Shown: piece after piece, positions 11,222 through 32,583 of the stretch
Layout: each line of letters starts with the position of its first letter
Position numbering within the stretch: position 1 is the stretch's first letter
Assembly: GCA_964594055.1 (NCBI GenBank)
Contig: CAZQKT010000001.1
Location: 11,577 to 75,576, forward strand
Direction of reading: 5' to 3'
DNA from: an uncultured Spirochaetales bacterium
Lineage (GTDB): Bacteria; Spirochaetota; Spirochaetia; SPDA01; CAZJBZ01
Length of the DNA: 64,000 bases
The notes under the pieces: generated by a model
Told to the model about the DNA's origin: nothing
The model's input: only the letters and a program-made list of their open reading frames with translations
The model's database searches: none
Program-made: the position numbers and the translations under genes

Positions 11222-11258
11222 TAGTATTCCCCTCTTACCGATTCCTCTTTTACCGCAG

Positions 11259-16247: not shown

Positions 16248-17879
16248 CTAAACCTCTCCGTTCTGAAGTGAGCGCATATGGAGAGTAAGTTCTCGGAAGT
16301 TTTCGATGTTTTCAGCTCCGATACTGCTCAGTTTACTTGCTTCGTTTACAACTTTTTCCGCCAGTTCGGTTAACGTTGTAATCTGTTCCTGCACAGTCTC
16401 CACGGTTGCCCCGATGTAGGTCATACTCATAGATCCTGTCTTAATATCCTCTTCCATGCCGGACAGGGAGCCGGTTACCTCTCTGTTGACATCGGTAATC
16501 TGGCCGACTGCTTCTTCGATCTGGGCCTGCCCTTCCTTCAGTTCCTGCATGCCGCTTACGATCTCTAAGAGGGCATTCCGGACATCGGTAATCTTCATAA
16601 TGATATTTCCGTATACCGACCCCATTTTCTCACTGGATTGTACCGACCGGTTTATCAGTGTGCTGCTTTCTTCGAGTGTCGAACGGATCATTTGGGAGTT
16701 GTCGTTATTCTCTTCCGCGAGTTTACGGATTTCTTCCGCTACAACCGCAAAACCATGACCATATTCTCCGGCGTGAGCGGCCTCGATGGCCGCATTCATG
16801 GCGAGCATATTTGTCCTGTCCGCGATCTGTTCGATTACAGTTATAATTTCGATGATATTTTCGGAAGATTTGGACACCGAGCGCAGAGAGGTGACCATTT
16901 CATGAAGGGTGTCAGTTCCCCTCTCAGAGACTTCGACCAGCTCGTCGATAACCGACTGTTTTTGCTCCGCAGAATTTGTAATCGAAGCCACCTGAGCTGT
17001 AATTTCCTCGGCAGCAGCAGAGGAACTGCTGATCACTTCGGTCTGCTTTTCGGTGACGGCTTTCATCGACTCTTTGGAATTACCGATTTTCTCCTGTGCC
17101 GAGGCAGCGTTATCAACGCTTTTGAGAAGGTCGGAAATACTCGTAGACATCGAGGTGAGATGTTCGGAAATATCAGCCGCAATTGATTCATTATTTTTTG
17201 CCTGCTCCTGCAGTTTTTCTCCCATATTAAATGCCTCACCCATCGACTCAATCAACTCTTTTAACGTGCTGTACTGTTCGTTTGCTTTCTGCGCCTGCCG
17301 GTTTATGGAAGCAAGACTTTGCATCTGCATTCTGAAAATTTGGAAAATAAAAACACCGGCAAAAATCATAAGAAGCAGAGAAACGAGAAACTCCGTAAGG
17401 GCCTCTCCGGTATACTGTATCTGTTCAAGGGCCGGCCGTATTCGCAGAAAAAACTGGGCCGAGTGGACTGCAACTCCAAATCCGACAACACCAATAACCT
17501 GCCACCGGGCGTAGGCTAGAAGCGGTGCTGTGACGAAAACAGGAATCATGTAGGTGGCTTGGATATAGACATCGTGCGGACTGGTTATGTCACGGACAAA
17601 GAAAAGACCGGCCCCGGCAAGACAAAAAAGGAGAATGGTCCCTGAGCTTACAATCCGAAATGCCTTTCTTAGAATGCCGAAGATAAAGAGAACGAGAATA
17701 AGGGTCACACAGATCTCGAGTACACCCATAAGAATAGAGCCGGTGGCAAGCCGTATGCCGCCGAGGGCCAGAAAGCCGATGCCGAGGATGATCGCCAAAA
17801 TAAAAAGGGAGAGAGCTTTTTCCCGGATAGTCACATTTTCGTCTGAGTAGAGTGAGCGAATATAGTCTGTCGTTTTCAT
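16248..17879 (-). CDS. Methyl-accepting chemotaxis protein with polytopic membrane N-terminus
   Basis: 543 aa. About 6 TM helices, then the MCP signalling-domain core ([34 protein letters not shown]). Confidence 0.8.
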
Positions 17880-17880
17880 A

Positions 17881-18171
17881 TTATTTATTTTTGTTCCAAT
17901 AATTATAGTTATAATTTTTTTGAAGGTGTTTGCATAGACCGAGGATAATTGAGTTAACCGGACTTTTTCCGTCGAGTACGATCCATTTTCTCTTTTGCCT
18001 ATCCACTCCTGCAGAAATGCCGAAATTCTTGAGTTTTCTTACTGCTTCTATTTCGGAAATTTGCAGTTCTCCCTTTGCATCATGTTCTTCGAAGAATTTG
18101 TTATATGCATTTTTCTTAGCCTCAGCTCTCGTCATAGCCCGTCTCTTGTCCTCCGATAGTTGGATACTCAT
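17881..18171 (-). CDS. Small hypothetical basic protein immediately upstream of the MCP
   Basis: 96 aa, lysine-rich with an NYNYNYW C-terminus and a very AT-rich 3' end. Its stop lies 1 nt from the MCP start. No homolog was recognised. Confidence 0.3.
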
Positions 18172-18208
18172 ACCCTATCCCGCATGAGAAAAAAAATCAA
18201 GAAAATGG

Positions 18209-18230
18209 CAATCTAAGAGCAATCTAAGAG
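18209..18230. repeat. Perfect tandem duplication of 11-mer CAATCTAAGAG in the promoter region of the ABC transporter operon
   Basis: caatctaagag-caatctaagag read directly, ~65 nt upstream of the 18296 start. Confidence 0.6.
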
Positions 18231-18295
18231 TATTAGCTTGCTCCGGGACCCAAGGTGTGCTACTCTTTTTTTATTATCTCGAGTAAGGTCAACTG

Positions 18296-19255
18296 ATGAT
18301 TACGAATTCAAAACAAGCTGCTAAAAGCATGGTAGCAGTTGCAAATCTCCGGAAATATTACGGAAAAAAACAGGCCCTGCAAGGTGTGAGCTTCGAGGTT
18401 TACCCGGGAGAAGTGTTTACGATTGTCGGACCGAACGGCTCGGGAAAGACGACGATTATGGAAATTATGGAAGGTATACGGAAATATTCAAGCGGCCGGT
18501 TTTCAATTCTGGGAGGGAATCCCGGAGAACAGGCGATAAAAGAGAAAATAGGCGTGCAGCTTCAGGATTCCCAGCCAATGAATAATCTCTCCTGCAGAGA
18601 AGCAGTACAGCTGTTTCGTTCTTTCTATAAAAAGGGGGCTGTTCCGGACAAAGTGCTCGGTTTGGTCGGTCTCGCGGAGAAACAAGATTCTCTTGTGAGA
18701 AAGCTCTCCGGGGGGCAAAAAAAGCGGTTGGAAATTGCTCTTGCCATCATCAATGATCCGGAAGTCGTTTTTTTGGATGAACCGACAACAGGACTGGATC
18801 CAAACGCCCGCAGACAGATCTGGAAAATAATCAAAAACCTACGGGAGATGGGTAAATCAGTTCTCTTTACCACCCACTATATGGATGAAGCCGAGACCCT
18901 TTCAGACCGTGTTGCAATTTTATATGAAGGCAGGATCGTAGCACTCGATTCCCCGAAACGGCTTATCTTTGATTCCGGACTGAAGAAACGTGTTGTTTTT
19001 TCATGCAGCAGCTGTGCTAACGGATTGTTGACCGAACTCGAGGAGGCTTTTCCATATATCCGGAATCAACTCGGCACTATTTCGATCCCGAGTTTCCATG
19101 TAAAACAGGACTTAAGCACAATTTTCTCTATTGCTGAAGCCCACACCATAGAGGTCGAAGAGTTGTCGGTTGAACTGCCGACATTAGAAGATGTATTCCT
19201 TCAAAAAACAGGATCATACTATCCGGATTACCCGAAGGAAGGGATAACGGTGTAG
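18296..19255 (+). CDS. ABC transporter ATP-binding protein
   Basis: 319 aa. Walker A (GPNGSGKTT), ABC signature (LSGGQKKRLEIA) and Walker B (VVFLDEPTTGLD). Confidence 0.85.
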   Translation: MITNSKQAAKSMVAVANLRKYYGKKQALQGVSFEVYPGEVFTIVGPNGSGKTTIMEIMEGIRKYSSGRFSILGGNPGEQAIKEKIGVQLQDSQPMNNLSCREAVQLFRSFYKKGAVPDKVLGLVGLAEKQDSLVRKLSGGQKKRLEIALAIINDPEVVFLDEPTTGLDPNARRQIWKIIKNLREMGKSVLFTTHYMDEAETLSDRVAILYEGRIVALDSPKRLIFDSGLKKRVVFSCSSCANGLLTELEEAFPYIRNQLGTISIPSFHVKQDLSTIFSIAEAHTIEVEELSVELPTLEDVFLQKTGSYYPDYPKEGITV

Positions 19256-19258
19256 GCC

Positions 19259-20359
19259 ATGAAAAAGGGTCTGAGCATCATTTTCCATCTTTCCAAATCG
19301 TTTTTTCTTCAGGAGTTTCGCTCGCGAGATTCCATTTTCTGGATACTGCTTTTTCCGGTATTTATGTTCATTCTCTTCGGTGTTCTCCTCGGAGAAACCG
19401 ATGTGCGAGACGGTTCTATCACAATCGGTGTTGACGAAGTGTTGTCTCAACAGTCCGAATCTTTCAACCGGTTTGTCATGAAATCACTCGAGGAGAGTGA
19501 AACCGTCACTACGGTTACGGCAAACAAGCAAAGAGGATTGGATGCGCTAGCGGAGAACAAAATCTACGCGTTCATCACGAGCGGAGAAGATGAAGATTCC
19601 TATACCGTCTATGTCACTGAAAAAAACAAACCTTTTCAGTCCGTTCTTTCTTCGGTTCTGGGAAAATCAACACTTGATTCAATTAAGAGGATTATAAGGG
19701 GGCGGGTCCCCGTTACCTATCGGATCGAGCTCCTCGAAAACAGAGGCCGGCCTCTCAGATACATCTACTATCTTCTTTCAGGAATAATCGGAATTGCTAT
19801 GATGATGAACTGCTTTACGGCAATTCCGCAGACGATTATCAGTTACAGAAAACAGGGATTTTTAACACGGCTTGCCTTCTCTCCGCTGCGGAAAAGCCAA
19901 TTTACAATCAGCGTGATCATTCAGCGGATTATTTTCGGAGTGACCCAGCTTTTCCTTCTTTTAGCTGTGGCCTCGCTGTTGTTCGGTGCTCGTCTTAACC
20001 CGTCCGTTTTCGCTTTTGCGATTACCTTTCTGTTAGGCACGACGACCCTCGCCGTAATTGGGTTCTTTCTCTCCGGCCTTCTCCAATCGGTCGAATCGGC
20101 TATTGCCGTGGCACAGATCCTCACTATCCTGTTTCTGTTTACCTGCGGTATTTTCGTCCCTTTAGAAGTACTTCCTCCCTATCTGACCTGGATCACCAAA
20201 ATAAATCCGGCGTGGCATCTTTCAAATGCCGTCTATTTTACCCTTGTATTAGGGTACGGTATTGAAACTATTATGCGCCCCCTTTTTTGGCTCCTCGTCA
20301 TGGGCATGATCTTTTTTGTTCTCACTGTGATTACATTTCGCTATGAGAAACGTGTTTAA
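19259..20359 (+). CDS. ABC-2 family transporter permease
   Basis: 366 aa. One N-terminal TM, a large loop and a C-terminal 5-TM bundle. It sits immediately after the ATPase gene. Confidence 0.65.
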   Translation: MKKGLSIIFHLSKSFFLQEFRSRDSIFWILLFPVFMFILFGVLLGETDVRDGSITIGVDEVLSQQSESFNRFVMKSLEESETVTTVTANKQRGLDALAENKIYAFITSGEDEDSYTVYVTEKNKPFQSVLSSVLGKSTLDSIKRIIRGRVPVTYRIELLENRGRPLRYIYYLLSGIIGIAMMMNCFTAIPQTIISYRKQGFLTRLAFSPLRKSQFTISVIIQRIIFGVTQLFLLLAVASLLFGARLNPSVFAFAITFLLGTTTLAVIGFFLSGLLQSVESAIAVAQILTILFLFTCGIFVPLEVLPPYLTWITKINPAWHLSNAVYFTLVLGYGIETIMRPLFWLLVMGMIFFVLTVITFRYEKRV

Positions 20360-20378
20360 AAAGTGTTAGGAGAACTAT

Positions 20379-21857
20379 ATGGGAAAAAAAGTTGTTATTA
20401 TCGGAGGCGGTTTGTCAGGGCTCTCTTCTGCAGCATTGCTCGGCAGGGAGGGGTATGCCGTAACCGTCGTTGAGAAACACTCAGTTCCGGGCGGAGTTGC
20501 CCGGGTGGCAAGAGAGAATGGGTTTGTCTTTGATATGGGGCCGACATGGTATCTCATGCCGGAAGTATTCGAACATTTTTTTGAACTCTTTGATAAAAAT
20601 ATTTCCGACTATTATGAGCTTGTTGAGCTTGATCCGTCGTATCAGGTTTTCTTCGAAGGAAAGGGGAACGTCACGCTCTCTCGCGATCGTGAAGCAAACA
20701 AAAAAATTTTTGATTTATTCGAGCCCGACGGCGGTGAGAAACTCGACCGCTATCTTGCAAATTCCGCGGTAAAGTACTCTATTGCCGTAAACGAGTTTCT
20801 CTATCGTGAGTTTACCGGGTTCTTTCAGTTTTTGAATATGCGTGTACTCCGGGACGGGTTGAAATTAAATATATTTCGGCGCCTCGATGCTTTTATGAAT
20901 AAGTATTTTACTAGTAGTGAGGCCCGAAAAGTTCTCGGGTTTAACACCGTTTTTTTAGGCTCCAGTCCCTACAAGACTCCGGCGCTCTATTCCCTGATGA
21001 GTCATGCCGATCTGACGCAGGGGGTGTTTTATCCCATGGGCGGAATAGGGAGTATGGTGGAAGCACTGCACAAACTCGGAGAAGAGCAGGGGGTAACATA
21101 CAGGTTCAGTGAGAACGCAACAAAGATCGAAGTCACTGATGGGAAAACCACCGGGGTTACTACCGATAAAGGATTTATTTCGGCGGATATTGTGCTCTCC
21201 TCGGTAGATTACCACTATACGGATACGACCCTCCTCGACAAACCGTATGCAAATTATTCTCATACGTATTGGAAGAAACGGGTAATGGCCCCCTCCACGT
21301 TTCTCATTTTTCTCGGGTTGACAAAAAAAGTCGAAAATCTTATGCACCACAATTTCTTTTTTGTTGAAGATTGGGAAGGTAATTTCCGGATGATCTTTGA
21401 CGAGAAATCGTGGCCTGAACATCCGTCGTACTATGTGGGGGTGCCTTCCAAAACGGACACTACTCTTTGTCCAGAAGGAGGAGAGACCCTTTTTATACTT
21501 GTTCCGGTAGCCCCCGGGCTCGATGATCCTGATGAGTTCCGCGAACGGTACGCGGAGAACGTATTGGTCCACCTCGAAGGGTTGACCGGACAGGAGATTC
21601 GTTCTCATATTGCATACAAAAGAATTATAAGCCATCGGGACTTTATCGATGGTAATAATATCTATAAAGGCTCCTCGCTCGGGCTTGCTCATACCTTGTT
21701 CCAGACAGCACTGTTGAGGCCGTCACATCGAAGTAAAAAAGTCCCCAATCTCTACTATACCGGCCATTATACCCAGCCGGGCATCGGCATGCCCATGCAG
21801 CTTATAGGCTCCGAGTTAGTGGCGAAGAGAATAAAAGACGAGATGGGCACGGAATAG
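20379..21857 (+). CDS. crtI: Phytoene desaturase family enzyme (CrtI/CrtN-type carotenoid desaturase)
   Basis: 492 aa. N-terminal FAD dinucleotide fold (KVVIIGGGLSGLSSAALLGREGYAVTVVEKHSVPGG) and the C-terminal CrtI family signature (TGHYTQPGIGMPMQLIGSELVA). RBS aggag precedes the start. Confidence 0.8.
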   Translation: MGKKVVIIGGGLSGLSSAALLGREGYAVTVVEKHSVPGGVARVARENGFVFDMGPTWYLMPEVFEHFFELFDKNISDYYELVELDPSYQVFFEGKGNVTLSRDREANKKIFDLFEPDGGEKLDRYLANSAVKYSIAVNEFLYREFTGFFQFLNMRVLRDGLKLNIFRRLDAFMNKYFTSSEARKVLGFNTVFLGSSPYKTPALYSLMSHADLTQGVFYPMGGIGSMVEALHKLGEEQGVTYRFSENATKIEVTDGKTTGVTTDKGFISADIVLSSVDYHYTDTTLLDKPYANYSHTYWKKRVMAPSTFLIFLGLTKKVENLMHHNFFFVEDWEGNFRMIFDEKSWPEHPSYYVGVPSKTDTTLCPEGGETLFILVPVAPGLDDPDEFRERYAENVLVHLEGLTGQEIRSHIAYKRIISHRDFIDGNNIYKGSSLGLAHTLFQTALLRPSHRSKKVPNLYYTGHYTQPGIGMPMQLIGSELVAKRIKDEMGTE

Positions 21858-21858
21858 T

Positions 21859-22944
21859 ATGTCCACGCTTGGGATGCTTTCGTTCTGGTCTGCCGTCGGT
21901 TATTGGATCGCCGGATGGTTTTTATTTGTCGGAGTAAAACGTCTTTCCGAGCACCCCCCGCGGAGCACTCAGTCCCCGGTCTCGGTTATCATTCCGGCGC
22001 GCAATGAAGAACAGGTGCTTCCCCGGCTGCTCGATTCCCTCAATAAGCAGACCGACCCTCCGGATGAGATCATCGTGATCAATGACAATTCTTCGGACAG
22101 GACCGCTGAGATTGCAGAGAAATACGGCTGCAGGGTGATACATGTACCGTCAAAACCGGAAGACTGGACCGGGAAAGCGTGGGCCTGCTGGACCGGTGCC
22201 GATGCGGCAATGCATGATCTGCTGCTCTTCATTGATGCAGATGTATGGTGCGGAAAAGATGCCGTTTCCGCGCTCAGGTCGGTATGGCTGGAGCACGGCG
22301 GACTGGTGTCGGTCCAGCCGAAGCATATTACGGAAAAGTTCTATGAACAGTGTTCCGCTTTTTTCAACATCGTATCAGTGGCGGCAGCAGGCAGAAAAGG
22401 GAGTTTTGGTCCGTGTATGGTATGCTCTAAGAAAGATTATAGTGAATCCGGGGGCCATAAGGCTGTCCGTGATCAAGTAGTCGATGATGTAGCGCTCGCG
22501 AAACAGTTTTTAAAAAAAGGAAACCAGGTGACCCCGTTTATGGGGATGAGCGAGATGAAGTTCCGTATGTATCCGGGAGGTGTACGGCAGCTCTTTGAGG
22601 GATGGACGAAAAACATGGCTGCAGGTGCCACTTTGACCGGGTTTTTATCGGTAATTCTTCTTTTTTTCTGGTTTACCGGAATCATAAACTCTATTACTGC
22701 GGTACTGTTTACCGCTCTTACTCCCGACTATTGGTTATTGGCTGCAGCACTTATCACCTGCGGCGCATATGTAGTCCAAATTCATCTGCTTTTAAGGCGG
22801 GTGGGGCGTTTTTTCTTTACTACAGCACTATTCTATCCATTTTATTTCCTCTTTTTTTTGCTCCTGTTCTTCATTTCTATTATATTAACTGCGGTTATAG
22901 GAAAGGTGCGATGGAAGGGCAGAATTATTTATCTGAGGCGGTAG
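21859..22944 (+). CDS. Family 2 glycosyltransferase, carotenoid glycosyltransferase-like (CrtQ/CruC-like)
   Basis: 361 aa. N-terminal TM, a GT-A fold (VSVIIPARNEEQVLPRLLDSLNKQT...IIVINDNSSDRT, DxD in FIDADV) and C-terminal TM helices. Sits between carotenoid genes. Confidence 0.6.
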   Translation: MSTLGMLSFWSAVGYWIAGWFLFVGVKRLSEHPPRSTQSPVSVIIPARNEEQVLPRLLDSLNKQTDPPDEIIVINDNSSDRTAEIAEKYGCRVIHVPSKPEDWTGKAWACWTGADAAMHDLLLFIDADVWCGKDAVSALRSVWLEHGGLVSVQPKHITEKFYEQCSAFFNIVSVAAAGRKGSFGPCMVCSKKDYSESGGHKAVRDQVVDDVALAKQFLKKGNQVTPFMGMSEMKFRMYPGGVRQLFEGWTKNMAAGATLTGFLSVILLFFWFTGIINSITAVLFTALTPDYWLLAAALITCGAYVVQIHLLLRRVGRFFFTTALFYPFYFLFFLLLFFISIILTAVIGKVRWKGRIIYLRR

Positions 22945-22954
22945 CGGACCGATT

Positions 22955-23452
22955 ATGGTAATCGATATAAAGAGTGCAGCGGCTTTGATTTTCGCCAATT
23001 CTCTCGGCTGGTTTTTAGTTATTTTCTCTGCCGGGTTTTTCATCCATCGAATTCCGCTGTATCTTTTTGATTACCATTCTGCTTTTTTCCGCCCTTTTGG
23101 TTTCGAGCGGGAGGGGAAGATCTACGAGAACGTTTTTAGGATTAAAGTGTGGAAAGACTATCTGCCCGAAGGAGGAGGAGTGTTTAGGGGCGGATTTGTA
23201 AAGAGAAAGGCGGACACACGAACTGTCGGCTATCTAGAGACGTTTGCAAAAGAGACTTGTAGAGCCGAGTTCGTCCACTGGGTTATCATTCTCTTCTTGC
23301 CGCTCTTTTTTTTGTGGAACCCTCCTCTCGGAGTGATAATTATGCTTCCCCTCGTAGTGGTATTGAATCTTCCCTTTATTATGATTCAACGGTACAACAG
23401 GCCTCGATTGGTGAAAATTCTTACTAAGAAGGTGATAGACAGTGGCAGTTGA
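22955..23452 (+). CDS. Small membrane acyltransferase, CrtO/CruD-like (glycosyl-carotenoid acyltransferase family)
   Basis: 165 aa. Two TM regions flank a conserved loop; size and topology match staphylococcal CrtO-type carotenoid glycoside acyltransferases. Assignment is from context plus pattern only. Confidence 0.45.
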   Translation: MVIDIKSAAALIFANSLGWFLVIFSAGFFIHRIPLYLFDYHSAFFRPFGFEREGKIYENVFRIKVWKDYLPEGGGVFRGGFVKRKADTRTVGYLETFAKETCRAEFVHWVIILFLPLFFLWNPPLGVIIMLPLVVVLNLPFIMIQRYNRPRLVKILTKKVIDSGS

Positions 23453-24272
23453 AAAAATTCAAAAGGAAAAATTCAAAAGAGGGAGCAAGACGTACTTCAA
23501 CAGCAGTCTCTTTTTCCCTAAATCGGTTCGCAATGATGTCTTTATTCTCTATGCATTTGTCCGCACGGCTGATGATTTCGTCGACGATATTCCGCAAGAC
23601 CCTCGCGGGTTTTATGATTTTCGAAACCGGTATAAAGCGGCGCTCGAAGGAACACCCAGCGGTGATGTTATAATCGATTCGTTCGTGGCCCTCGCAGCAA
23701 GAAAACGATTTGATCCGGCATGGACGGACGGGTTTCTCGATTCTATGGAAATGGACCTGACGAAAACAGAATACACCACGCTTAAAGAAACACTCCGTTA
23801 TATGTACGGTTCCGCGGAGGTAATCGGGCTGTATATGGCACGCATTATGGACCTGCCCTACGAGGCCCATTATGCAGCGAAAATGTTGGGAAGGGCAATG
23901 CAGTATATCAATTTTATCAGAGACATCGATGAGGACATATCATTAGGCAGGACGTATCTTCCCCTCTCCGGCTCAGGACTGACATCCCTGCGGAAAAGAG
24001 ATGTAATCTCAACGGATTCCCAAACAAAACGTTTCACCTCGTTTGTTCGCAAAAATATTGATCTGTATTATATATGGCAAAGGGAGGCTGAACAGGGGTA
24101 CCGGTATATTCCCCGCCGTTATCTCATCCCTATCAAGACCGCAGCGGATATGTACGGCTGGACAGCGTCCGTCATCAGGGAAAATCCGCTCGTTGTTTAT
24201 GAAAAAAAAGTTAAACCTTCGAAACTCCGTATTCTGGTTACTGTTTTTAAAAACAGCAGAGGAGGCTATTGA
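23442..24272 (+). CDS. crtB: Phytoene/squalene (dehydrosqualene) synthase family
   Basis: 276 aa. First aspartate-rich motif YAFVRTADDFVDD and second motif (YINFIRDIDEDISLGRTYLP) of trans-isoprenyl diphosphate synthase head-to-head enzymes. GTG start overlaps the previous gene. Confidence 0.8.
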   Translation: MAVEKIQKEKFKRGSKTYFNSSLFFPKSVRNDVFILYAFVRTADDFVDDIPQDPRGFYDFRNRYKAALEGTPSGDVIIDSFVALAARKRFDPAWTDGFLDSMEMDLTKTEYTTLKETLRYMYGSAEVIGLYMARIMDLPYEAHYAAKMLGRAMQYINFIRDIDEDISLGRTYLPLSGSGLTSLRKRDVISTDSQTKRFTSFVRKNIDLYYIWQREAEQGYRYIPRRYLIPIKTAADMYGWTASVIRENPLVVYEKKVKPSKLRILVTVFKNSRGGY

Positions 24273-24274
24273 TC

Positions 24275-24958
24275 ATGGAGAAGGGCAAGGGTAAAAACAG
24301 ATTCGTCAATCTGCTCAAAGAGGTGTATTCCCATAAAAAAATTATTATCTTTATTCTCGCCTCTTTTTATGCGATGGGTATCCTCTGGCATGCTCTCCCT
24401 CTAACCTATCCGTTGATGCTGATCGTGACCCCTTCTGTGCTTCTTGTTTTTGGATTGTTTATTTTCGGTGCAGGGCTTCTGGAAGGGGGGAAGCTGTTTC
24501 TCGGCTGGTCGGTCGTCACTTTTTTGGCAACATTTGCCGTCGAGGCTGCGGGAGTGGCAACCGGAAGTATTTTCGGTGAATACTATTATGGCGATGTTTT
24601 GGGGGCCAAGATACTCGGTGTCCCTCTGGTAATCGGATTTAATTGGACCATCGTTGTATTCGGTATTGCCTCTTTCGTAGGTAGATTTATTTCGAACCGG
24701 GTATTGGCCGCCTTCCTGACTGCGTGCGGCGGCGTTGTTTTTGATTGGCTCATGGAACCGATAGCGATGGCCCTCGGTTATTGGGAGTGGATTGGTAATT
24801 CGGTCCCGTTCCAAAACTACCTTGCGTGGTTTATTATCGGGTTTGGAGCAGGTCTCGGTTTTTTTGCTTTTAATCTTCGCATAAAGAGTAATTATCCGCC
24901 GATATACGTACTTATACAGGCGTTATTTTTCATTGGTCTGCGGTTTGTTGTCGTGTAA
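24275..24958 (+). CDS. Polytopic membrane protein, putative carotenoid-modifying enzyme (CruF-type 1,2-hydratase-like)
   Basis: ~227 aa with 6-7 TM helices. It is the last gene of the crt operon. Assignment to the 'carotenoid biosynthesis protein' membrane family is tentative, based on context and hydropathy only. Confidence 0.3.
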   Translation: MEKGKGKNRFVNLLKEVYSHKKIIIFILASFYAMGILWHALPLTYPLMLIVTPSVLLVFGLFIFGAGLLEGGKLFLGWSVVTFLATFAVEAAGVATGSIFGEYYYGDVLGAKILGVPLVIGFNWTIVVFGIASFVGRFISNRVLAAFLTACGGVVFDWLMEPIAMALGYWEWIGNSVPFQNYLAWFIIGFGAGLGFFAFNLRIKSNYPPIYVLIQALFFIGLRFVVV

Positions 24959-24966
24959 CGGACACG

Positions 24967-26028
24967 TTATCGAGTCCGTTCGAGACTGTATGTAAGAAGG
25001 TCCATCAATAAACCTCGAGCTTCTTCATTCCGGCATGCAAGCATTTTTATCCGCTCACGCACTTCTTCGGCAATGGTTTTCACTGTAGTTTCCACTTTCT
25101 CTTTTATTCCGAGCCGGTCGATTCGTTTTTGAATAAACTCGATATCCTCCGTGGTGATATCCTTGTTGCCGAACAGGGAGAGAAGATGCTGTTTTTCCTC
25201 CCCTTCACCACTGTTTATAAGATAATGATAGTAGAGTGTTTTTTTCCCTTCGCGGATATCCGAGCCTATTGGTTTTCCTACCGTTTCCTTCCCGCCGAAC
25301 ATCCCCAGTTCATCATCCTTGATTTGAAACAATATTCCCAGCTGTGTTCCAATACTCTCGAGGGATGAAATCGTTTCATCGTTTTCTCCTGCAGACATCG
25401 CCCCGGCCATAAGAGGAAGAGAAAACGTATAGCGGGCCGTTTTATACGTATACAGGTGGATAATCTCGTCGACAGACCGAACTTTGCTGTCCGACCCCCA
25501 CAGAACATCTACCATTTGGGCCACCCCTACAAGAGTCAACTCTCTGCTGCAGAGTGTAAGCAGGCGGATTATACTCTGGTTTGGAAGGTTGTTTTTTGAT
25601 AGAATTTCAAAGGCCAAGAAGTAGGCGATATCGCCGGCGCAAATCCCTAACGCTTCTCCCGTGTGGACAGGGTCGGAAAGTTTTTCTTGATCGGCAAATG
25701 AGATATACTCGGCATATATCGATGGAGAACCTCTTCTGTGCTTGTCACGGTCCATGATGTCGTCATGGATGAGAAGTGCGGATTGAAATAATTCTTGCAC
25801 CGCACCGAGCGGGGTCGTGATATCTTCATTCGGAGAAGAGTATAGTTCGTACCCGAGGCAGACGAGAGCTCCTCTGATCATTTTACCCTTCAATGTAAAC
25901 GAGAGGAGTTTACTGCTTAAGCTCTCTCCTATCGGATGGATTGACTGCAGAGTAGGACCGTAACTGCTGATAAAATCATTGAGGTATCTGCTTATGCGTT
26001 CTTTTTTTTCCGCGATATACGATTTCAT
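24967..26028 (-). CDS. Polyprenyl diphosphate synthase (GGPP/FPP synthase family)
   Basis: 353 aa. FARM (LIHDDIMDRDKHRRG) and SARM (FQIKDDELGMFG) aspartate-rich motifs. Confidence 0.8.
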   Translation of the reverse strand: MKSYIAEKKERISRYLNDFISSYGPTLQSIHPIGESLSSKLLSFTLKGKMIRGALVCLGYELYSSPNEDITTPLGAVQELFQSALLIHDDIMDRDKHRRGSPSIYAEYISFADQEKLSDPVHTGEALGICAGDIAYFLAFEILSKNNLPNQSIIRLLTLCSRELTLVGVAQMVDVLWGSDSKVRSVDEIIHLYTYKTARYTFSLPLMAGAMSAGENDETISSLESIGTQLGILFQIKDDELGMFGGKETVGKPIGSDIREGKKTLYYHYLINSGEGEEKQHLLSLFGNKDITTEDIEFIQKRIDRLGIKEKVETTVKTIAEEVRERIKMLACRNEEARGLLMDLLTYSLERTR

Positions 26029-26044
26029 ATAGCGGTGATTGCCG

Positions 26045-26587
26045 TTATAAGGTCACGGAGAAACTGATGCGTTTTGGATGTTTGGTTTTGAAATTGTCAC
26101 TTCGGTCCGGACCATAGGCGACGAGAATAACATGTTCCCGCCCTTTCTCGAGTTTTGTATCGTAAGAATCCCCGGAATCAAGCGGAATTGTAAATGTTAT
26201 CTCCGTACCGGAACTGTCTTCTTTTCCGGTATATTCGATAATATCGTTTGTCCCGCCTAACTCCGTATCAGGTCTATGCGAGAAAGCACCATCACCGAAA
26301 TGATCTTCGATAAAAAGTTCTCCCCCTTCAACATATCCGATAATGAAATTGGCATCTTTCATGGCATTAGAGGGATCGAAACCGACCCCAATCCATCCTT
26401 GTGTCGGTGCGTGTACAATAAACTCGGCATTGCCGCCCGATATCTTCCATTTGAACATGACACCTGCAGTCTCAACCGTTGTATACCCTTCACTGTCAAC
26501 AACGGGCTCTGCTTCTACTGAACCACCGGCAAAACTGAGACCGGCTACAATTGCGGCTAACATGAGAACACATAAAGCTTTCTTCAT
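26045..26587 (-). CDS. Secreted hypothetical protein (DOMON/CBM9-like beta-sandwich?)
   Basis: 180 aa with a signal peptide (MKKALCVLMLAAIVAGLSFAGG). G/D-rich beta-strand pattern; fold assignment is speculative. Confidence 0.3.
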   Translation of the reverse strand: MKKALCVLMLAAIVAGLSFAGGSVEAEPVVDSEGYTTVETAGVMFKWKISGGNAEFIVHAPTQGWIGVGFDPSNAMKDANFIIGYVEGGELFIEDHFGDGAFSHRPDTELGGTNDIIEYTGKEDSSGTEITFTIPLDSGDSYDTKLEKGREHVILVAYGPDRSDNFKTKHPKRISFSVTL

Positions 26588-26660
26588 ACCATCTCTCCTC
26601 TACTGAAACGTATTCTAAATAATAAAGAATGTAAAGAATACCGTATAAATACTAGTTCCG

Positions 26661-27650
26661 TCATGATTTCGGCAGAAGCATTCTGTAGAGTTTTTTCCTT
26701 TCAAACTCGCCGGCGTACAAAAAGTAGTCTGCAATTCCTGGAGGTACATGCGGCAGCACCGTTTCTGTGAGGTAAAAGTTGCCGGGTTTGGCAAACCGCT
26801 TTCCTAAATGATAGAGAGAGTTTACGGTATCGGAAATGACTGTTCCAGTATCACCCCGCTTTCTATATACCGTGTTCCCGATATCGAGAACGATGCGGTA
26901 GGACAGCAGGATATCATGTGGAAACTCCTCTGTGCTTATAATGGTCCTGTTGAGGATTATTTTAAAACATTCCAGAATTGGATCGCACGTGTGTCCATCG
27001 AACGGGAAAAGTACCAGGCCGCCGAATTGGTCCCAAATCCAGATGTTTCCATTCATCGGCGAAACCCGTCGTTCGATGAAATTGTGAAAATCTGTACCAA
27101 CTTTATCGAGGTGATATTTACCGGATTTCTTTTCCCAATCAGCGTGCAGATCCAGTTCGGTAAACATAAAGCAGAACGTATATTCTTTGCCCGGTTTTAT
27201 AGTTTTCCAATCTTTTCCCGAATAGATAGTAGGAGTATCTTTTTCCGCAACCTCTGTACCAACAATTTTGTGTGTATCTGCATATTTGAGAATCTGTTTT
27301 ATCCGTTTTGAAGGGATTCCTTTTTTGAGAATCGTTTGGCCGATATAATCTATTGCTCCTGCATGAAAAAGTGCGGCCGGGTCATTGATGATTCCGTTTT
27401 TATCAATAATCCCAATGCGTGAACTGTCTTGCTTCGCTAGAAAACGGACGAGCTTTGTTTGGTCGCGCCATCCGGGAGCTGAAATGTCGAGATAGTAAAT
27501 GGTGTCACTATTTTGTTTTTTTACGGCATCTTTCAGTTCGGAAACCGGTTTTACGGAAAAATCAAAATTGCGGGCCCTGCCGAGCGAATCAAACTTTTTT
27601 ATGACCGTATCGTTATCGGAATAAAGAATTATTGTCATACCGGCTCCCAT
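26661..27650 (-). CDS. Class III nucleotidyl-cyclase homologue, C2-like (degenerate metal site, conserved DTVN transition-state motif)
   Basis: 329 aa. C-terminal half: FCFMFTELDLHAD...GNIWIWDQFGGLVLFPF...YRIVLDIGNTVY...SDTVNSLYHLGKRF. The first-half Asp motif is degenerate but the 'GDTVN' motif is intact. The N-terminal ~150 aa is an unknown (REC-like?) domain. Overlaps the upstream gene by 16 nt. Confidence 0.45.
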   Translation of the reverse strand: MGAGMTIILYSDNDTVIKKFDSLGRARNFDFSVKPVSELKDAVKKQNSDTIYYLDISAPGWRDQTKLVRFLAKQDSSRIGIIDKNGIINDPAALFHAGAIDYIGQTILKKGIPSKRIKQILKYADTHKIVGTEVAEKDTPTIYSGKDWKTIKPGKEYTFCFMFTELDLHADWEKKSGKYHLDKVGTDFHNFIERRVSPMNGNIWIWDQFGGLVLFPFDGHTCDPILECFKIILNRTIISTEEFPHDILLSYRIVLDIGNTVYRKRGDTGTVISDTVNSLYHLGKRFAKPGNFYLTETVLPHVPPGIADYFLYAGEFERKKLYRMLLPKS

Positions 27651-28561
27651 TCCAATTCATACGCGTAAAGTTTTCTGTCCCCTTTACTGTTGATCGGCAA
27701 AAACTTGTTCGATACGATTTCATCGAGCATAACTTTTATTACCGGGCTGATGGTAATCGAATTCATTTTTGTCTGGGTAGATTCTATTTCCAATATACGT
27801 TTGATTGTATCACTTTTTGACAGTTCCTCTTCCTTTTCCGTGTATTCGAAGGAGCCGGAATGGACCGCAATACGGACTTTGAGAGGAGACTTGAGTTTAT
27901 TGTCAATACAATTGTATAAAAAGATGGAATGGATAATCTCCATTGCCGCCAATGTGGCGAGCAGATGCCTGTTGGAGAAGAAAAAAGCTGCCAAGCCCCC
28001 ATCACCTTCCCACGACCATATTCTTCCGTTACGCTTCACTGTAGAATTCTGAACGATGGTGCGCAAATCATCATACGCTTTTTTGACTTCTGTGGGAGAG
28101 TGCTGCCGGACCAAAGAGGTATTGCCTGCAATATCAACACGCAGAAACGCTATTGTGTACTCATCCCCCTTCTGAAGAGCGCCCCAATTTCTGGTCTGCC
28201 GATACCGTGAGTTTTCGACAAACATCTCATTCTCTTTGTCGTAAACAAATCCGAGTTCATAGACGCCGCGGATAATGTTGTTCAGATACGATATCGGATA
28301 TTTCCTCCCCATATGTCCGCTTTCCTGAATTTCGATCAGATAACTTACCAAATTGGGAAAAAGTCCACTTACTGATGCATCGGTGACGATCTGGTTTGCG
28401 ACCTCGAGGTTCGGAATTGCAATACTTGTCGGATAACCGGTCCTCTCGTATATATCATAATCGGGGATCAGCTTTTTTGCGATCATGCACATGGTGTGTG
28501 GGTCCATCGATTCCGCTAATGCTTTTGCACATTGGTTTAGTAAACTATTGGCAATCCGCAT
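27635..28561 (-). CDS. Class III nucleotidyl-cyclase homologue, C1-like (conserved metal-binding Asp motifs)
   Basis: 308 aa. AFLRVDIAGNTSLVRQHSPTEVKKAYDDL...KRNGRIWSWEGDGGLAAFFF...LKVRIAVHSGSF fits the F-x-D-I-x-G-F-T...K-x-x-GD-x-x-A-x-F...R-I-G-I-H-x-G pattern of adenylyl/guanylyl cyclase catalytic domains. The downstream 'DTVN..R' is degenerate (SDTIKRILEIE). Start ATG overlaps the stop of the upstream gene (TAATG). Confidence 0.5.
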   Translation of the reverse strand: MRIANSLLNQCAKALAESMDPHTMCMIAKKLIPDYDIYERTGYPTSIAIPNLEVANQIVTDASVSGLFPNLVSYLIEIQESGHMGRKYPISYLNNIIRGVYELGFVYDKENEMFVENSRYRQTRNWGALQKGDEYTIAFLRVDIAGNTSLVRQHSPTEVKKAYDDLRTIVQNSTVKRNGRIWSWEGDGGLAAFFFSNRHLLATLAAMEIIHSIFLYNCIDNKLKSPLKVRIAVHSGSFEYTEKEEELSKSDTIKRILEIESTQTKMNSITISPVIKVMLDEIVSNKFLPINSKGDRKLYAYELEWEPV

Positions 28562-30459: not shown

Positions 30460-30513
30460 TTTTTATTCGAAACTATTTGATTTTTTGCACGTATATATAT
30501 TATCTTTTAAGTA

Positions 30514-32583
30514 ATGAATAAAGGTAATTTATTACAGTATGAAAAGAGTCCGTATCTGCTCCAGCATGCCGAAAATCCGGTCCACTGGAAACCGTGGGGT
30601 GATGCGGCATTTGAGCAGGCGAAACATGAGGATAAGCCGATATTTCTCTCTATCGGGTATTCTACATGCCACTGGTGTCATGTAATGGAGAAAGAATCTT
30701 TTGAGGATGAACACGCGGCGTCCCTGCTGAATGGGACATTTGTGTGTATAAAAGTCGATCGGGAAGAGAGGCCCGATATTGACAGTGTATATATGGATGT
30801 TGTTCAGGCCTTGACCGGGACAGGAGGTTGGCCTCTCACTGTCGTTATGACTCCTGAAAAAAAGCCGTTTTTTGCCGCTACATATATTCCGAGAGAAGAT
30901 ACGTATGGAAGAGTCGGGTTGCTCAATCTCATTCCCCGGATCAGCCAGGTGTGGAACAATGAAAGGGAAAGAGTAGATGAATCGGCCGAATCAATTGTGA
31001 ACCAGCTCGTTGCTAATGAGACCAGAGATTTCTCGGATAGGTTCCCGGGCAATGATGTGCCGGATAAGGCTTTTGTTGCTTTAAAGAGTAATTACGATGA
31101 AAAACATGGGGGATTCAATGAAGCTCCAAAGTTCCCTTCTCCCCACAACCTTCTGTTTCTGCTCCGTTACTGGAAGCGTACCGGAAATGAAGAGAGTCTG
31201 AACATGGTGCTTCACACTCTCACTGCAATGCGGCGGGGCGGTATGTTCGATCAGATAGGATTCGGATTTCACCGGTATTCAACCGATCGATTCTGGCTTG
31301 TTCCTCATTTCGAAAAAATGCTCTACGATCAAGCTCTTTTGGCAATGACCTACTTCGAAGCGTATGAAGCAACCGGAAACGGTCTGTTTGCACAAACCGG
31401 AAGGGAAATATGTGCCTATGTGGCTGAAAAACTTACCGACAAACAGGGAGGCTTCTATTCCGCCGAAGATGCGGATAGTGAGGGGGTAGAAGGGAAGTAC
31501 TACGTATGGAGCTGGAAAGAGTTGGAAAATGCACTCGAACCGGAAGAGATGGATTTTTTAAAGGAATATGTGACCGTTTCCCGGGAAGGAAATTTTCATG
31601 AGCCGGCAATCAAAGAAGAAGGGGCCAACGTTTTCTCACGTAAAAGACCGATTGATACAAATACAGAAAAAAACCAGTGGGAGAAGGTCCGGAAAAAATT
31701 GGAGCGCCTACGGTCAACCCGTTCTGCTCCTTTCAAGGACGATAAAATACTTACAGACTGGAACGGATTGATGATTATGGCATTTGCTGCAGGCTATAGA
31801 CTGCTTGGCGATCCGCGTTTCCGGGAGCGGGCCGAACAGGCGGCACAGTTCGTGCTCTCCAATATGAGAGAGGGCGAAGATGATCTTCTGCACATGTATC
31901 GGGACGGGACCGCTATGGTGGAGGCGAAACTGGACGATTACGCCTTTTTCGGTTTGGGTTGTGTTCGGTTGTTCGAAGCAACGTTTAATCCGTTCTACCT
32001 CGAGTGGGCGGTAACACTTGCCGAGAAAGCGCTCCGGCTTTTTTGGGACACTGCCCGGGGAGGATTCTATCTTACTGACCGCACAAATGATGAACTGTTT
32101 CTAAAAGAAAAACCGCACTTGGATATGGCTATTCCTTCCGGTAACTCGGTAATGTACGATCTGTTCACCCGGTTAGGACGTCTAACCGGTAATCAGGAGT
32201 ATGAGCAGACCGGAGAAGAGATCGGGAAAAGCTTATCAAAACAGATAACGAGTGTACCGTACGCGCATACTTATTTTCTCGCAGGAATAGAGGCGAACAG
32301 AGGCCGGCGGAGAGAAGTCGTTGTAGTAGGGAAGCCTCAGGACGAGCAGACGAAGAAAATACTCGACTTTCTCAACCACACCTATCTGCCGGGACAGATC
32401 GTGCTGGTAAAAAGTCCGGATGGAGCTTCGAACGGCGAACAGAACATTTCATCTCTTGTTCCACATATAGCGCAGTATGGGATGATCGATAATAAAACAA
32501 CGGTGTACGTCTGTGAGAACTTCGCCTGCAAGAAACCGGTAACTGAGCTTGAAAGTGTGAAAGAGCTCATAATTCGGCGGTAA
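30514..32583 (+). CDS. Thioredoxin-domain protein YyaL family (DUF255 + (alpha/alpha)6 barrel)
   Basis: 689 aa. N-terminal [52 protein letters not shown] (CxxC thioredoxin-like), then a glycoside-hydrolase-like six-hairpin domain. Confidence 0.8.

What the first reader, a model, noticed from the sequence alone, without database searches (positions are those of the whole stretch)
20379..26028. Compact carotenoid glycoside-ester biosynthesis cluster (desaturase, GT2, CrtO/CruD-like acyltransferase, CrtB/M synthase, membrane hydratase-like protein, polyprenyl synthase)
Five co-directional, tightly packed or overlapping genes lie beside a convergent polyprenyl synthase. The combination of a GT2 glycosyltransferase and a small CrtO/CruD-like membrane acyltransferase points to an acylated carotenoid glycoside (the staphyloxanthin/salinixanthin-type logic), not a simple carotene. 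The last gene, a 7-TM protein, could supply the 1',2'-hydration (CruF-like) that creates the hydroxyl to be glycosylated. Only one CrtI-family desaturase is present, and there is no CrtP/aldehyde dehydrogenase and no cyclase. The product is therefore probably a hydroxylated acyclic (or elsewhere-cyclised) carotenoid glycoside ester. Whether the backbone is C30 or C40 cannot be decided from sequence.
Basis: partly seen in the sequence, partly recalled or inferred. Interest (0 to 1): 0.55.

Follow-up and report, generated by a model that had tools for sequence, protein, structure and literature searches.

The report
Carotenoid sugar-ester pigment operon with exporter
This is a real but fairly ordinary pigment gene cluster from an uncultured mat bacterium (probably a spirochaete) that should make a red-orange carotenoid carrying a sugar and a fatty acid; the one less expected feature is a membrane export pump that always travels with it.

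Summary

I add three things.
1. The backbone is more likely C40 than C30. The synthase has Ser where C30 synthases have the size-limiting Phe26. The desaturase scores 632 bits against the haloarchaeal bifunctional CrtI+CrtD model 'CrtID' (cut-off 640). The adjacent prenyl synthase is GGPP-synthase-like.
2. That bifunctional type explains why a single desaturase is enough.
3. The two ABC-2 transporter genes just upstream (18296-20359) belong to the operon. They stay fused to it in relatives at 89, 78 and 65% identity whose outer flanks differ. They also recur, rearranged, next to GT2 and CrtO genes in two more distant genomes.

The 64 kb hold no cyclase, UbiA elongase, CrtP, aldehyde dehydrogenase or second desaturase.

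The predicted product is an acyclic 1-hydroxy-(3,4-didehydro)lycopene glycoside fatty-acid ester. The closest precedents are the clusters of Thermomicrobium roseum, Rhodothermus/Salinibacter and Planococcus.

Verdict: a new member of a known kind, of modest interest. No chemistry was tested.

The parts
18296..19255 (+). ABC transporter ATPase (DrrA/NodI-like), first gene of the operon
   Evidence: PF00005 at 99.4 bits; the best NCBIfam model is TIGR01188 drrA at 223.8 bits, below its cut-off of 312. It lies 3 nt before the permease gene. It is kept directly upstream of the pigment genes in L084/L085 (72% identity) and L086 (58%), and sits rearranged next to GT2 and CrtO genes in L092 (53%) and L095.
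19259..20359 (+). ABC-2 type permease, 6 hydrophobic segments; proposed exporter or flippase for the acylated carotenoid glycoside
   Evidence: PF12698 at 132.7 bits and PF01061 at 75.6 bits. It ends 19 nt before the desaturase gene. Its identity to relatives is 90/77/65% in L083/L084/L086, tracking the desaturase at 89/78/64%, while the genes further upstream differ. It is 43% identical in L092. The export function is inferred, not shown.
20379..21857 (+). CrtI-family carotenoid desaturase of the haloarchaeal CrtID type (phytoene desaturase, probably also 3,4-desaturase)
   Evidence: NF058655 CrtID at 631.9 bits (cut-off 640) and TIGR02734 crtI_fam at 450.3 bits (cut-off 238). The best solved structures are 4rep gamma-carotene desaturase (207.6 bits) and 4dgk CrtI (185.1 bits). 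It is the only CrtI-family gene in the window. Bifunctionality is inferred from Haloarcula japonica C0507/D1086 (PMC11946383).
21859..22944 (+). Membrane-anchored GT2 glycosyltransferase (CrtQ/CruC/CruG-like architecture) that should glycosylate the 1-hydroxyl
   Evidence: PF00535 at 94.9 bits. It has C-terminal hydrophobic segments. IMG names it 4,4'-diaponeurosporenoate glycosyltransferase. The NCBIfam equivalogs CruG (75 bits, cut-off 600) and HpnB (86 bits, cut-off 379) are not reached. It always lies directly upstream of the CrtO-family gene in L083, L084, L086, L091, L093 and L094.
22955..23452 (+). CrtO-family small membrane acyltransferase that should esterify the sugar with a fatty acid
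   Evidence: PF18927 at 117.4 bits, full length. It is 40-52% identical to proteins named glycosyl-4,4'-diaponeurosporenoate acyltransferase in Bacillaceae. Invariant residues are E51, W66, P71, E105, H108 and Q145-R-Y-N-R149 in a 34-sequence alignment.
23442..24272 (+). Head-to-head prenyl diphosphate synthase, most likely phytoene (C40) synthase CrtB
   Evidence: PF00494 at 163 bits. Ser22 aligns with the chain-length-limiting Phe26 of two solved CrtM enzymes. That position is S or T in 78 of 80 family members. IMG names it 15-cis-phytoene synthase. No NCBIfam equivalog cut-off is reached.
24275..24958 (+). CruF-like 7-segment membrane protein, proposed carotenoid 1,2-hydratase
   Evidence: PF04240 at 73.7 bits (cut-off 25). 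TIGR03460 CruF scores 70.4 bits, below its cut-off of 154.7. It has seven hydrophobic segments. IMG names it bisanhydrobacterioruberin hydratase. An alternative TTG start lies at 24269.
24967..26028 (-). Short-chain trans-prenyl diphosphate synthase, probably GGPP synthase supplying the C20 precursor
   Evidence: PF00348 at 176.2 bits. The best solved relative is the Corynebacterium GGPP synthase 3lk5 (122 bits). The first Asp-rich motif is DDIMD with no insertion, and A/L rather than aromatic residues lie 5 and 4 positions before it. IMG names it GGPP synthase type I. It is also adjacent to the cluster in L001, L083 and L093.
26045..26587 (-). Secreted DOMON-domain protein, 16 nt upstream of the prenyl synthase on the same strand; whether it belongs to the system is uncertain
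   Evidence: PF03351 at 66 bits, with an N-terminal signal-like hydrophobic segment. It is conserved only in the closest relative, L083 (79%), and is absent from the other loci.

Best explanation
This is a seven-gene operon (18296-24958, + strand) with a convergent prenyl synthase gene. It most likely makes, and probably exports, an acyclic C40 carotenoid glycoside fatty-acid ester.

Proposed order of steps:
1. The prenyl synthase makes GGPP.
2. The CrtB-type synthase condenses two GGPP to phytoene.
3. The single CrtID-type desaturase takes phytoene to lycopene.
4. The CruF-like membrane protein adds water across the 1,2 double bond, giving a tertiary 1-hydroxyl.
5. The same desaturase may then introduce the 3,4 double bond.
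6. The GT2 enzyme transfers a hexose from a nucleotide sugar to that hydroxyl.
7. The CrtO-family enzyme esterifies the sugar with a fatty acid.
8. The ABC-2 pump moves the amphipathic product out of the cytoplasmic membrane, plausibly towards the outer membrane of this probably diderm spirochaete.

One or both ends of the molecule may be modified.

What is shown here: the family memberships, the tight operon packing, the conserved gene order, the small residue at the size-determining position of the synthase, and the absence of cyclase, elongase and oxidase genes from the 64 kb window.

What is inferred from characterised homologues: every chemical step, the backbone length, the identity of the sugar and acyl groups, and the transport role.
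For: Family assignments all pass the curated Pfam thresholds.

Desaturase: 631.9 bits against the CrtID model, whose cut-off is 640. That model stands for enzymes shown genetically to have both CrtI and CrtD activity (PMC11946383). No second desaturase is present.

Lines favouring C40:
- Ser22 sits at the CrtM-Phe26 position. F26A/S/L substitutions are what let CrtM make C40 (PMC13304436). The whole family has S or T at this position.
- A dedicated GGPP-synthase-like gene is adjacent.
- The desaturase-synthase pair is shared with many archaea.

Hydrate, glycosylate, acylate logic: shown or supported in Planococcus, Rhodothermus and Thermomicrobium roseum.

Operon and exporter: the gaps run from -11 to 19 nt. 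The order ABC ATPase, ABC-2 permease, desaturase, GT2, CrtO, synthase, CruF is kept in L083, L084/85 and L086 while the outer flanks differ. ABC, ABC-2, GT2 and CrtO genes are co-located again in a different arrangement in L092 and L095.

No cyclase, UbiA, CrtP or aldehyde dehydrogenase lies in the window.
Against: - No NCBIfam equivalog cut-off is reached by any of the proteins. CrtID misses by 8 bits, CruF scores 70 against 155, the CrtB models score about 95 against 500, CruG 75 against 600, and GGPPS 127 against 500. The functions are therefore family-level inferences.
- The only characterised CrtO-family and CrtQ-type enzymes act in C30 pathways.
- The small residue at the Phe26 position permits C40 synthesis but does not exclude C30.
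- Only 64 kb of the genome were seen, so a cyclase or elongase may lie elsewhere.
- More distant clusters of the same biosynthetic type (L091, L093) lack the ABC genes. Export is therefore not obligatory, and ABC-2 pumps are common neighbours of many operons.
- The promoter and terminator scans were no better than shuffled sequence.
- No expression or pigment data exist.
Confidence: 0.68

Rival explanations
1. The backbone is C30. The synthase would work as a CrtM-like dehydrosqualene synthase on FPP, and the product would be a hydroxylated diapocarotenoid glycoside ester, as in Planococcus and Halobacillus.
For: The GT2 and acyltransferase are named crtQ and crtO by IMG. The named relatives of the acyltransferase at 40-52% identity are from C30-producing Bacillaceae. 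The Planococcus C30 cluster has the same GT, acyltransferase and CruF set. The best solved-structure hits of the synthase are CrtM enzymes, but no CrtB structure is available for comparison.
Against: Ser stands in place of the C30-restricting Phe26. The desaturase is nearest to haloarchaeal C40-C50 enzymes. A GGPP-synthase-like gene is adjacent, which a C30 pathway would not need. IMG names the synthase 15-cis-phytoene synthase.
Confidence: 0.15
2. The cluster supplies only the psi-end chemistry. A lycopene cyclase encoded elsewhere in the genome would make the final pigment monocyclic: a 1'-hydroxytorulene or gamma-carotene glycoside ester, as in salinixanthin and the pigments reported for cultured Spirochaeta.
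For: Monocyclic 1'-hydroxytorulene-type pigments are what I recall for Spirochaeta aurantia (own knowledge, not checked here). The Rhodothermus and Salinibacter systems combine the same psi-end enzymes with CrtY. Only 64 kb of a 143.8 kb contig, and of the genome, were seen.
Against: No cyclase family appears in any ORF of the window or in the called genes of the syntenic loci L083-L086, L091 and L093. Thermomicrobium roseum shows that fully acyclic acylated glycosides exist.
Confidence: 0.2
3. The ABC-2 transporter is an unrelated neighbour, for example a drug or lipid efflux pump, that merely shares a promoter with the pigment genes or lies next to them.
For: ABC-2 pumps are very common. L091 and L093 carry the same biosynthetic set without them. 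None of the 80 species-representative loci with a related desaturase shows a homologous permease.
Against: The pump genes are retained in the same position at 90, 77 and 65% identity while the genes upstream of them are completely different. An orthologous pair (53% and 43% identity) again lies next to GT2 and CrtO genes in the differently arranged L092 and L095. The gap to the desaturase gene is 19 nt.
Confidence: 0.3
4. The pathway continues to a C45 or C50 bacterioruberin-like carotenoid through a UbiA-type lycopene elongase encoded elsewhere, because CruF and CrtD homologues are the partners of LyeJ in haloarchaea.
For: IMG names the two proteins after the bacterioruberin enzymes. UbiA-family genes lie next to related clusters in L001, L003 and L004.
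Against: No UbiA-family gene occurs anywhere in the window (tblastn and Pfam) or in L083-L086.
Confidence: 0.05

Closest known systems
Thermomicrobium roseum carotenoid cluster trd_1158-1167 (crtB, crtI, cruF-acyltransferase fusion, GT2 cruC), which makes acylated oscillol diglycosides (PMC2615216)
   Same: It has the same functional set: phytoene synthase, one CrtI-family desaturase, a CruF-type hydroxylating enzyme, a GT2 and an acyltransferase. There is no cyclase, and the product is an acyclic C40 glycoside ester.
   Different: Here the acyltransferase is a separate CrtO-family gene, not a domain fused to CruF. The desaturase is of the CrtID type. A prenyl synthase and an ABC-2 pump are attached. 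No candidate for 2-hydroxylation is present. I could not test whether the T. roseum acyltransferase domain is homologous to PF18927.
Rhodothermus marinus / Salinibacter ruber salinixanthin-type cluster (cruF-crtB fusion, cruD, crtI, crtY, ketolase, cruC) (PMC5822342, PMC7414004)
   Same: It follows the same CruF, then glycosyltransferase, then acyltransferase logic on the psi-end. CruF and CrtB are tightly coupled: fused there, and 2 nt apart (or overlapping by 4 nt from the alternative TTG start) here. CrtI is suspected of also doing the 3',4' desaturation.
   Different: Those pigments are monocyclic and keto-substituted (CrtY and a ketolase are present). The GT lies outside the cluster in R. 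marinus. No transporter is described.
Planococcus maritimus C30 cluster (crtNa, crtNc, crtM, crtNb, GT, acyltransferase, cruF) (PMC8502411)
   Same: GT, acyltransferase and CruF sit together with a synthase and a desaturase. The sequence hydration, then desaturation, then glucosylation of the tertiary hydroxyl was demonstrated in E. coli.
   Different: That backbone is C30 and uses three CrtN paralogues. Here there is one CrtID-type desaturase, a synthase with Ser at the Phe26 position, and a GGPP-synthase-like gene.
Staphylococcus aureus staphyloxanthin operon crtOPQMN plus aldH
   Same: It has the CrtQ-type GT2 and the CrtO-family acyltransferase pair. The end product is a carotenoid glycoside fatty-acid ester.
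   Different: In staphyloxanthin the glucose is ester-linked to a carotenoid carboxylate made by CrtP and AldH. Both are absent here, and a CruF-type protein is present instead, so the sugar must go onto a hydroxyl.
Haloarcula japonica bacterioruberin enzymes C0507/D1086 (CrtID) and CruF (PMC11946383)
   Same: They are the nearest characterised relatives of the desaturase, where one enzyme does both the CrtI and CrtD reactions. A CruF-family partner is present.
   Different: There is no LyeJ elongase here, so no C50 backbone is expected. The haloarchaeal pathway has no glycosylation or acylation.

Membership tests
CrtI/CrtD phytoene desaturase family (TIGR02734, PF01593) | Full-length match above the curated cut-off | tested here: met
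   TIGR02734 at 450.3 bits against a cut-off of 238.1; PF01593 at 98.6 bits against 19.8.
CrtID bifunctional phytoene/3,4-desaturase (NF058655 equivalog) | Score at or above the equivalog cut-off of 640 bits | tested here: inconclusive
   631.9 bits over positions 1-478 of 478, which is 8 bits below the cut-off. Dual activity itself cannot be tested with these tools.
CrtO glycosyl-carotenoid acyltransferase family (PF18927) | Full-length match above the gathering score, in a small polytopic membrane protein | tested here: met
   117.4 bits against a cut-off of 27.3, covering profile positions 3-122 of 123. It has 3-4 hydrophobic segments. The E-x2-H and QRYNR motifs are conserved.
CruD carotenoid-glycoside acyltransferase (Chlorobaculum/Salinibacter) | Sequence similarity to a characterised CruD | not tested
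IMG assigned the crtO name, not the cruD name.
Staphyloxanthin pathway (CrtM, CrtN, CrtP, AldH, CrtQ, CrtO) | Presence of the CrtP oxidase and aldehyde dehydrogenase that create the carboxylate to be glycosylated | tested here: not met
   There is no second CrtI/CrtN-family gene and no aldehyde dehydrogenase family hit in any ORF of the window.
Squalene/phytoene synthase family (PF00494) | Full-length match above the gathering score | tested here: met
   163 bits against a cut-off of 26, covering profile positions 2-262 of 263.
C40 phytoene synthase CrtB (as opposed to C30 CrtM) | Equivalog-level match to CrtB models; a small residue at the CrtM-Phe26 position | tested here: inconclusive
   The CrtB equivalogs score 95.7, 90.3 and 73.1 bits, far below their cut-offs of 480-550. 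However, Ser22 aligns with Phe26 of two solved CrtM enzymes, and the position is S or T throughout the family.
CruF carotenoid 1,2-hydratase (PF04240; TIGR03460) | Family match; equivalog match; polytopic membrane protein | tested here: inconclusive
   PF04240 is met (73.7 bits against 25), but only profile positions 22-152 of 209 are aligned. TIGR03460 scores 70.4 bits against 154.7, and NF041333 scores 27 against 300, so neither is met. There are seven hydrophobic segments.
Carotenoid GT2 glycosyltransferases (CrtQ/CruC/CruG) | A GT2 domain with C-terminal membrane segments; an equivalog match | tested here: inconclusive
   PF00535 at 94.9 bits is met. CruG NF045692 scores 75.3 bits against 600 and is not met. 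The C-terminal hydrophobic segments are present. IMG names it crtQ.
Short-chain trans-prenyl diphosphate (GGPP) synthase | The polyprenyl_synt family; a chain-length region typical of products of C20 or shorter | tested here: inconclusive
   PF00348 at 176.2 bits is met. The GGPPS equivalogs are not met (127 bits against 500). The best solved relative is GGPPS 3lk5. The motif DDIMD has no insertion, and no aromatic residue lies at -4 or -5, which is compatible with C20 or longer.
ABC-2 type exporter (DrrAB/NodIJ-like) | An ATPase plus a six-helix ABC-2 permease encoded as a pair | tested here: met
   PF00005 at 99.4 bits and PF12698 at 132.7 bits. There are six hydrophobic segments. The drrA subfamily cut-off is not reached (223.8 bits against 312). 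The substrate cannot be tested with these tools.
Conserved carotenoid glycoside-ester operon | The same genes in the same order in independent genomes with different flanks | tested here: met
   L083, L084/85 and L086 carry the full order including the ABC genes. L091 and L093 carry the biosynthetic part.

The most novel reading that the evidence does not exclude
The ABC-2 pump, the GT2 and the CrtO-family acyltransferase form a conserved 'make and export a pigment glycolipid' module. It would deliver an acylated carotenoid glycoside from the cytoplasmic membrane to the cell envelope (the outer membrane) of uncultured spirochaetes. This would be a dedicated carotenoid export step. I found none described in the papers read here, and I recall none, though I made no targeted literature search for carotenoid transporters.
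Probability: 0.35. Interest if true: 0.5.

Novelty: new member of a known kind. Interest (0 to 1): 0.3.

Why it matters
If the prediction holds, it gives a genetic basis for pigmentation in an uncultured, light-exposed mat bacterium, probably a spirochaete. My full-text searches found no paper describing carotenoid genes in spirochaetes.

It also offers a compact six-gene set (one desaturase instead of two or three) for making acyclic carotenoid glycoside esters heterologously.

The co-inherited ABC-2 pump is a testable candidate for how such amphipathic pigments leave the inner membrane.

Beyond that, the cluster uses only known enzyme families in a known logic, so it does not change the current understanding of carotenoid biosynthesis.

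Tried and rejected
- Promoter and terminator consensus scans over 17700-30600 gave no more sites than shuffled sequence, so they say nothing about operon limits.
- An exact-sequence look-up of the desaturase by DNA reference failed. The identical protein was then found through the homologue search.
- Taxonomy from ketol-acid reductoisomerase was uninformative. Hits at about 79% identity come from Spirochaetota, Bacteroidota and Chloroflexi alike. The spirochaete assignment rests on the named relatives of the pigment genes and is only probable.
- Comparison of the synthase with solved structures cannot separate CrtB from CrtM, because only CrtM-type and HpnC structures matched, and weakly.
- A literature search for CruD/CruC with word-start matching returned 'crude' and 'crucial' noise. 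The Maresca & Bryant 2006 paper is not held, so the relation between CruD and PF18927 stays open.
- I looked for a second desaturase, UbiA elongase, tocopherol-cyclase-like protein or cyclase in the window and found none.
- I tested whether the FA_hydroxylase gene at 1593-2348 matches the FA_hydroxylase gene next to the operon in L084. There was no similarity.
- I considered a hopanoid or squalene role, because HpnB and HpnD are the top NCBIfam names for the GT2 and the synthase. I rejected it: the scores are far below the cut-offs, the desaturase matches HpnE at only 38 bits against 632 for CrtID, and no cyclase is present.

Full report
**Observation.**
- 20379-21857, 492 aa
- 21859-22944, 361 aa
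- 22955-23452, 165 aa
- 23442-24272, 276 aa
- 24275-24958, 227 aa
- the convergent 24967-26028, 353 aa

The gaps between them are 1, 10, -11 and 2 nt, with 8 nt to the convergent gene.

IMG's automatic annotation of the identical proteins already calls them crtD-like desaturase, crtQ, crtO, crtB, cruF and GGPP synthase type I. The cluster is real, and pipelines can already recognise its parts.

**Source.** Identical proteins occur on a 143.8 kb NCBI contig, on a 37 kb JGI contig (3300012009) and on short contigs from microbial-mat metagenomes.

The nearest named relatives of the desaturase (53-59% identity) and of the acyltransferase are Spirochaetales or Spirochaetia MAGs. The window also carries several chemotaxis genes.

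A housekeeping protein did not resolve the phylum. 'Spirochaete' is therefore probable, not proven.

**The desaturase.** It scores 631.9 bits over the full length of NCBIfam NF058655, 'CrtID, bifunctional phytoene desaturase/3,4-desaturase'. The cut-off is 640.

That name goes back to Haloarcula japonica C0507 and D1086. Gene disruption and complementation showed that each has both CrtI and CrtD activity (PMC11946383).

Among solved structures it is slightly closer to a gamma-carotene (1'-hydroxycarotenoid-type) desaturase, 4rep, than to Pantoea CrtI, 4dgk.

It is the only CrtI-family gene in the 64 kb. The bifunctionality itself is an inference.

**C30 or C40.** Three indirect lines favour C40.
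1. In HMMER alignments to two solved C30 synthases (8is6 and 5iys), the residue opposite their Phe26 is Ser22. F26A/S/L substitutions are what allow CrtM to accept GGPP and make phytoene (summarised in PMC13304436). Of the 80 family members retrieved, including duplicate copies of the window's own gene, 78 have S or T at this position.
2. The desaturase's closest characterised relatives act on C40-C50 substrates.
3. A dedicated prenyl synthase lies next to the operon. Its best solved relative is a GGPP synthase (3lk5, 122 bits). Its first Asp-rich motif has neither the insertion nor the aromatic residues that restrict bacterial FPP synthases to C15.

None of this excludes C30, and no CrtB equivalog model is reached. 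I put C40 at roughly 0.7-0.75.

**Tailoring logic.** There is no CrtP-type oxidase and no aldehyde dehydrogenase, so the staphyloxanthin route (sugar esterified to a carotenoid carboxylate) is not available.

A CruF-family protein is present instead. CruF-type hydration followed by desaturation and glucosylation of the new tertiary hydroxyl was shown step by step for the Planococcus genes in E. coli (PMC8502411).

In Rhodothermus, deleting cruF abolished glycosylation and acylation (PMC7414004).

Thermomicrobium roseum uses crtB, crtI, a CruF-acyltransferase fusion and a GT2 to make acylated, acyclic oscillol diglycosides (PMC2615216).

The window's gene set is the same toolbox. The predicted product is an acyclic 1-hydroxy-(3,4-didehydro)lycopene glycoside fatty-acid ester, possibly modified at both ends.

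The acyltransferase family keeps an invariant E-x2-H pair and a QRYNR motif. These are candidate catalytic residues, and the acyl donor is unknown.

The two genes immediately upstream are an ABC ATPase (18296-19255) and an ABC-2 permease (19259-20359). They are separated from each other by 3 nt and from the desaturase gene by 19 nt.

Three independent relatives keep the order ATPase, permease, desaturase, GT2, CrtO, synthase, CruF (on L083 the contig starts just before the permease, so only the end of a gene is seen at the ATPase position). Their desaturase identities are 89% (L083), 78% (L084/L085) and 65% (L086). The genes further upstream are entirely different in each. The permease diverges in step with the pigment genes, at 90, 77 and 65%.

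In two more distant genomes (L092, a Spirochaetia MAG, and L095) an orthologous ATPase-permease pair lies in one operon with a GT2. That operon is divergent from a 624-aa amine-oxidase-family gene followed by a CrtO-family gene.

I therefore treat the pump as part of the system. I propose that it exports or flips the amphipathic pigment, much as other ABC-2 systems handle glycolipids and lipo-oligosaccharides (own knowledge).

Against this, L091 and L093 have the same biosynthetic genes without a pump. None of the 80 species-representative loci with a related desaturase has a homologous permease.

**How common the parts are.** A scan of one genome per species found the desaturase family in many Spirochaetota MAGs. 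It also found it in methanogens, Thermoplasmatales, Bathyarchaeia, Thorarchaeota, Saccharibacteria, Omnitrophota and others.
- In about 70 of the 80 loci the synthase gene lies beside the desaturase gene, nearly always directly downstream of it.
- A CruF-like gene accompanies it in 17 loci.
- A related GT2 accompanies it in 4.
- A CrtO-family gene accompanies it in none.

The glycosylation-acylation extension is therefore a minority elaboration of a widespread two-gene core.

**Absences.** Pfam scans of all ORFs of 200 aa or more, inspection of the small intergenic ORFs, and tblastn with UbiA and tocopherol-cyclase-like proteins from related loci found none of the following in the window: lycopene cyclase, elongase, ketolase, CrtP or aldehyde dehydrogenase. 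A cyclase elsewhere in the genome cannot be excluded.

**Verdict.** The cluster is a new member of a known kind of system, the carotenoid glycoside-ester clusters. It combines parts in a mosaic: a haloarchaeal-type CrtID and CruF, a Firmicute-type CrtQ/CrtO pair, and a GGPP-synthase-like gene.

The only feature that goes beyond the precedents I read is the co-inherited ABC-2 pump. All chemistry is inferred. Interest is modest (0.3).

Noticed in passing
L010, L021, L022, L033, L037, L052, L064, L066, L068 and others (desaturase at about 10001-11460 in each): The same desaturase-synthase gene pair (45-53% and 50-58% identity) occurs in strictly anaerobic archaea. These include Methanobacterium sp. 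ACI-7 and MBAC-LM, Methanosalsum natronophilum, Methanocalculus, Thermoplasmatales, Bathyarchaeia and Thorarchaeota, and it also occurs in Saccharibacteria MAGs. Its product there is unknown. One methanogen CrtI homologue is reported to make hydroxyarchaeol rather than carotenoids (cited in PMC10821996).
   Followed up: partly
L001 11451-12347 (-); L003 about 9101; L004 about 9136: A UbiA-family prenyltransferase gene lies directly beside the desaturase gene in some loci, of which L003 and L004 are Spirochaetales MAGs and L001 is an unnamed 3.79 Mb contig. L001 also carries CruF and GT2 genes; L003 and L004 carry a GT2 gene but showed no CruF hit. The L001 set recalls the haloarchaeal lyeJ-cruF-crtD triad and hints at elongated (C45/C50) glycosylated carotenoids in bacteria. 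The window has no such gene.
   Followed up: no
L001 5273-6223; L092 12152-13219; L095 9453-10484; L051 about 4807-5769: A Tocopherol_cycl (PF14249) gene recurs within a few kb of related carotenoid or CrtO loci in four genomes. Its role is unknown; it could be a cyclase acting on an isoprenoid. It is absent from the window.
   Followed up: no
L092 3772-9486 and L095 2721-8489: There is a second conserved architecture. ABC ATPase, ABC-2 permease and a 412-429 aa GT2 sit on one strand, divergent from a 624-aa amine-oxidase-family protein (only 22% identical to the window's desaturase, with an extra Fer4_20-like region) followed by a CrtO-family gene. No synthase lies nearby.
   Followed up: partly
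L094 6873-8513: A GT2-CrtO gene pair occurs with no carotenoid gene within 8 kb, beside other GT2 genes. The CrtO family may therefore also acylate glycolipids that are not carotenoids.
   Followed up: no
window 26661-28561 (-): Two adjacent, overlapping paralogous genes (329 and 308 aa, about 20% identical to each other) have no Pfam family above threshold. The 308-aa protein has a sub-threshold match to the class III adenylate/guanylate cyclase domain (17.2 bits, cut-off 21.9). Both are conserved with the DOMON gene in L083.
   Followed up: partly
window 26045-26587 (-): A secreted DOMON-domain protein is encoded 16 nt upstream of the prenyl synthase on the same strand. It might bind a sugar or lipid ligand in the periplasm. 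It is conserved only in the closest relative, L083.
   Followed up: partly
L084 569-7723 and L085 42-5092: In the 78% relative, the genes upstream of the ABC genes encode a type III polyketide synthase, methyltransferases, FAD oxidoreductases and an FA_hydroxylase. This looks like a separate alkylresorcinol-like lipid cluster. The window's own FA_hydroxylase (1593-2348) shows no similarity to it.
   Followed up: partly
window 8136-12314 (-): This is a run of envelope or lipid genes: a sulfatase-family membrane protein, a fusion of a CDP-alcohol phosphatidyltransferase with an FkbM methyltransferase domain, and a GT4 glycosyltransferase. It may be a polar-lipid head-group pathway.
   Followed up: no
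window 41407-43817 (-): A second, unrelated ABC ATPase plus ABC-2-type permease pair lies here. The ATPase is 35% identical to the operon's ATPase.
   Followed up: no
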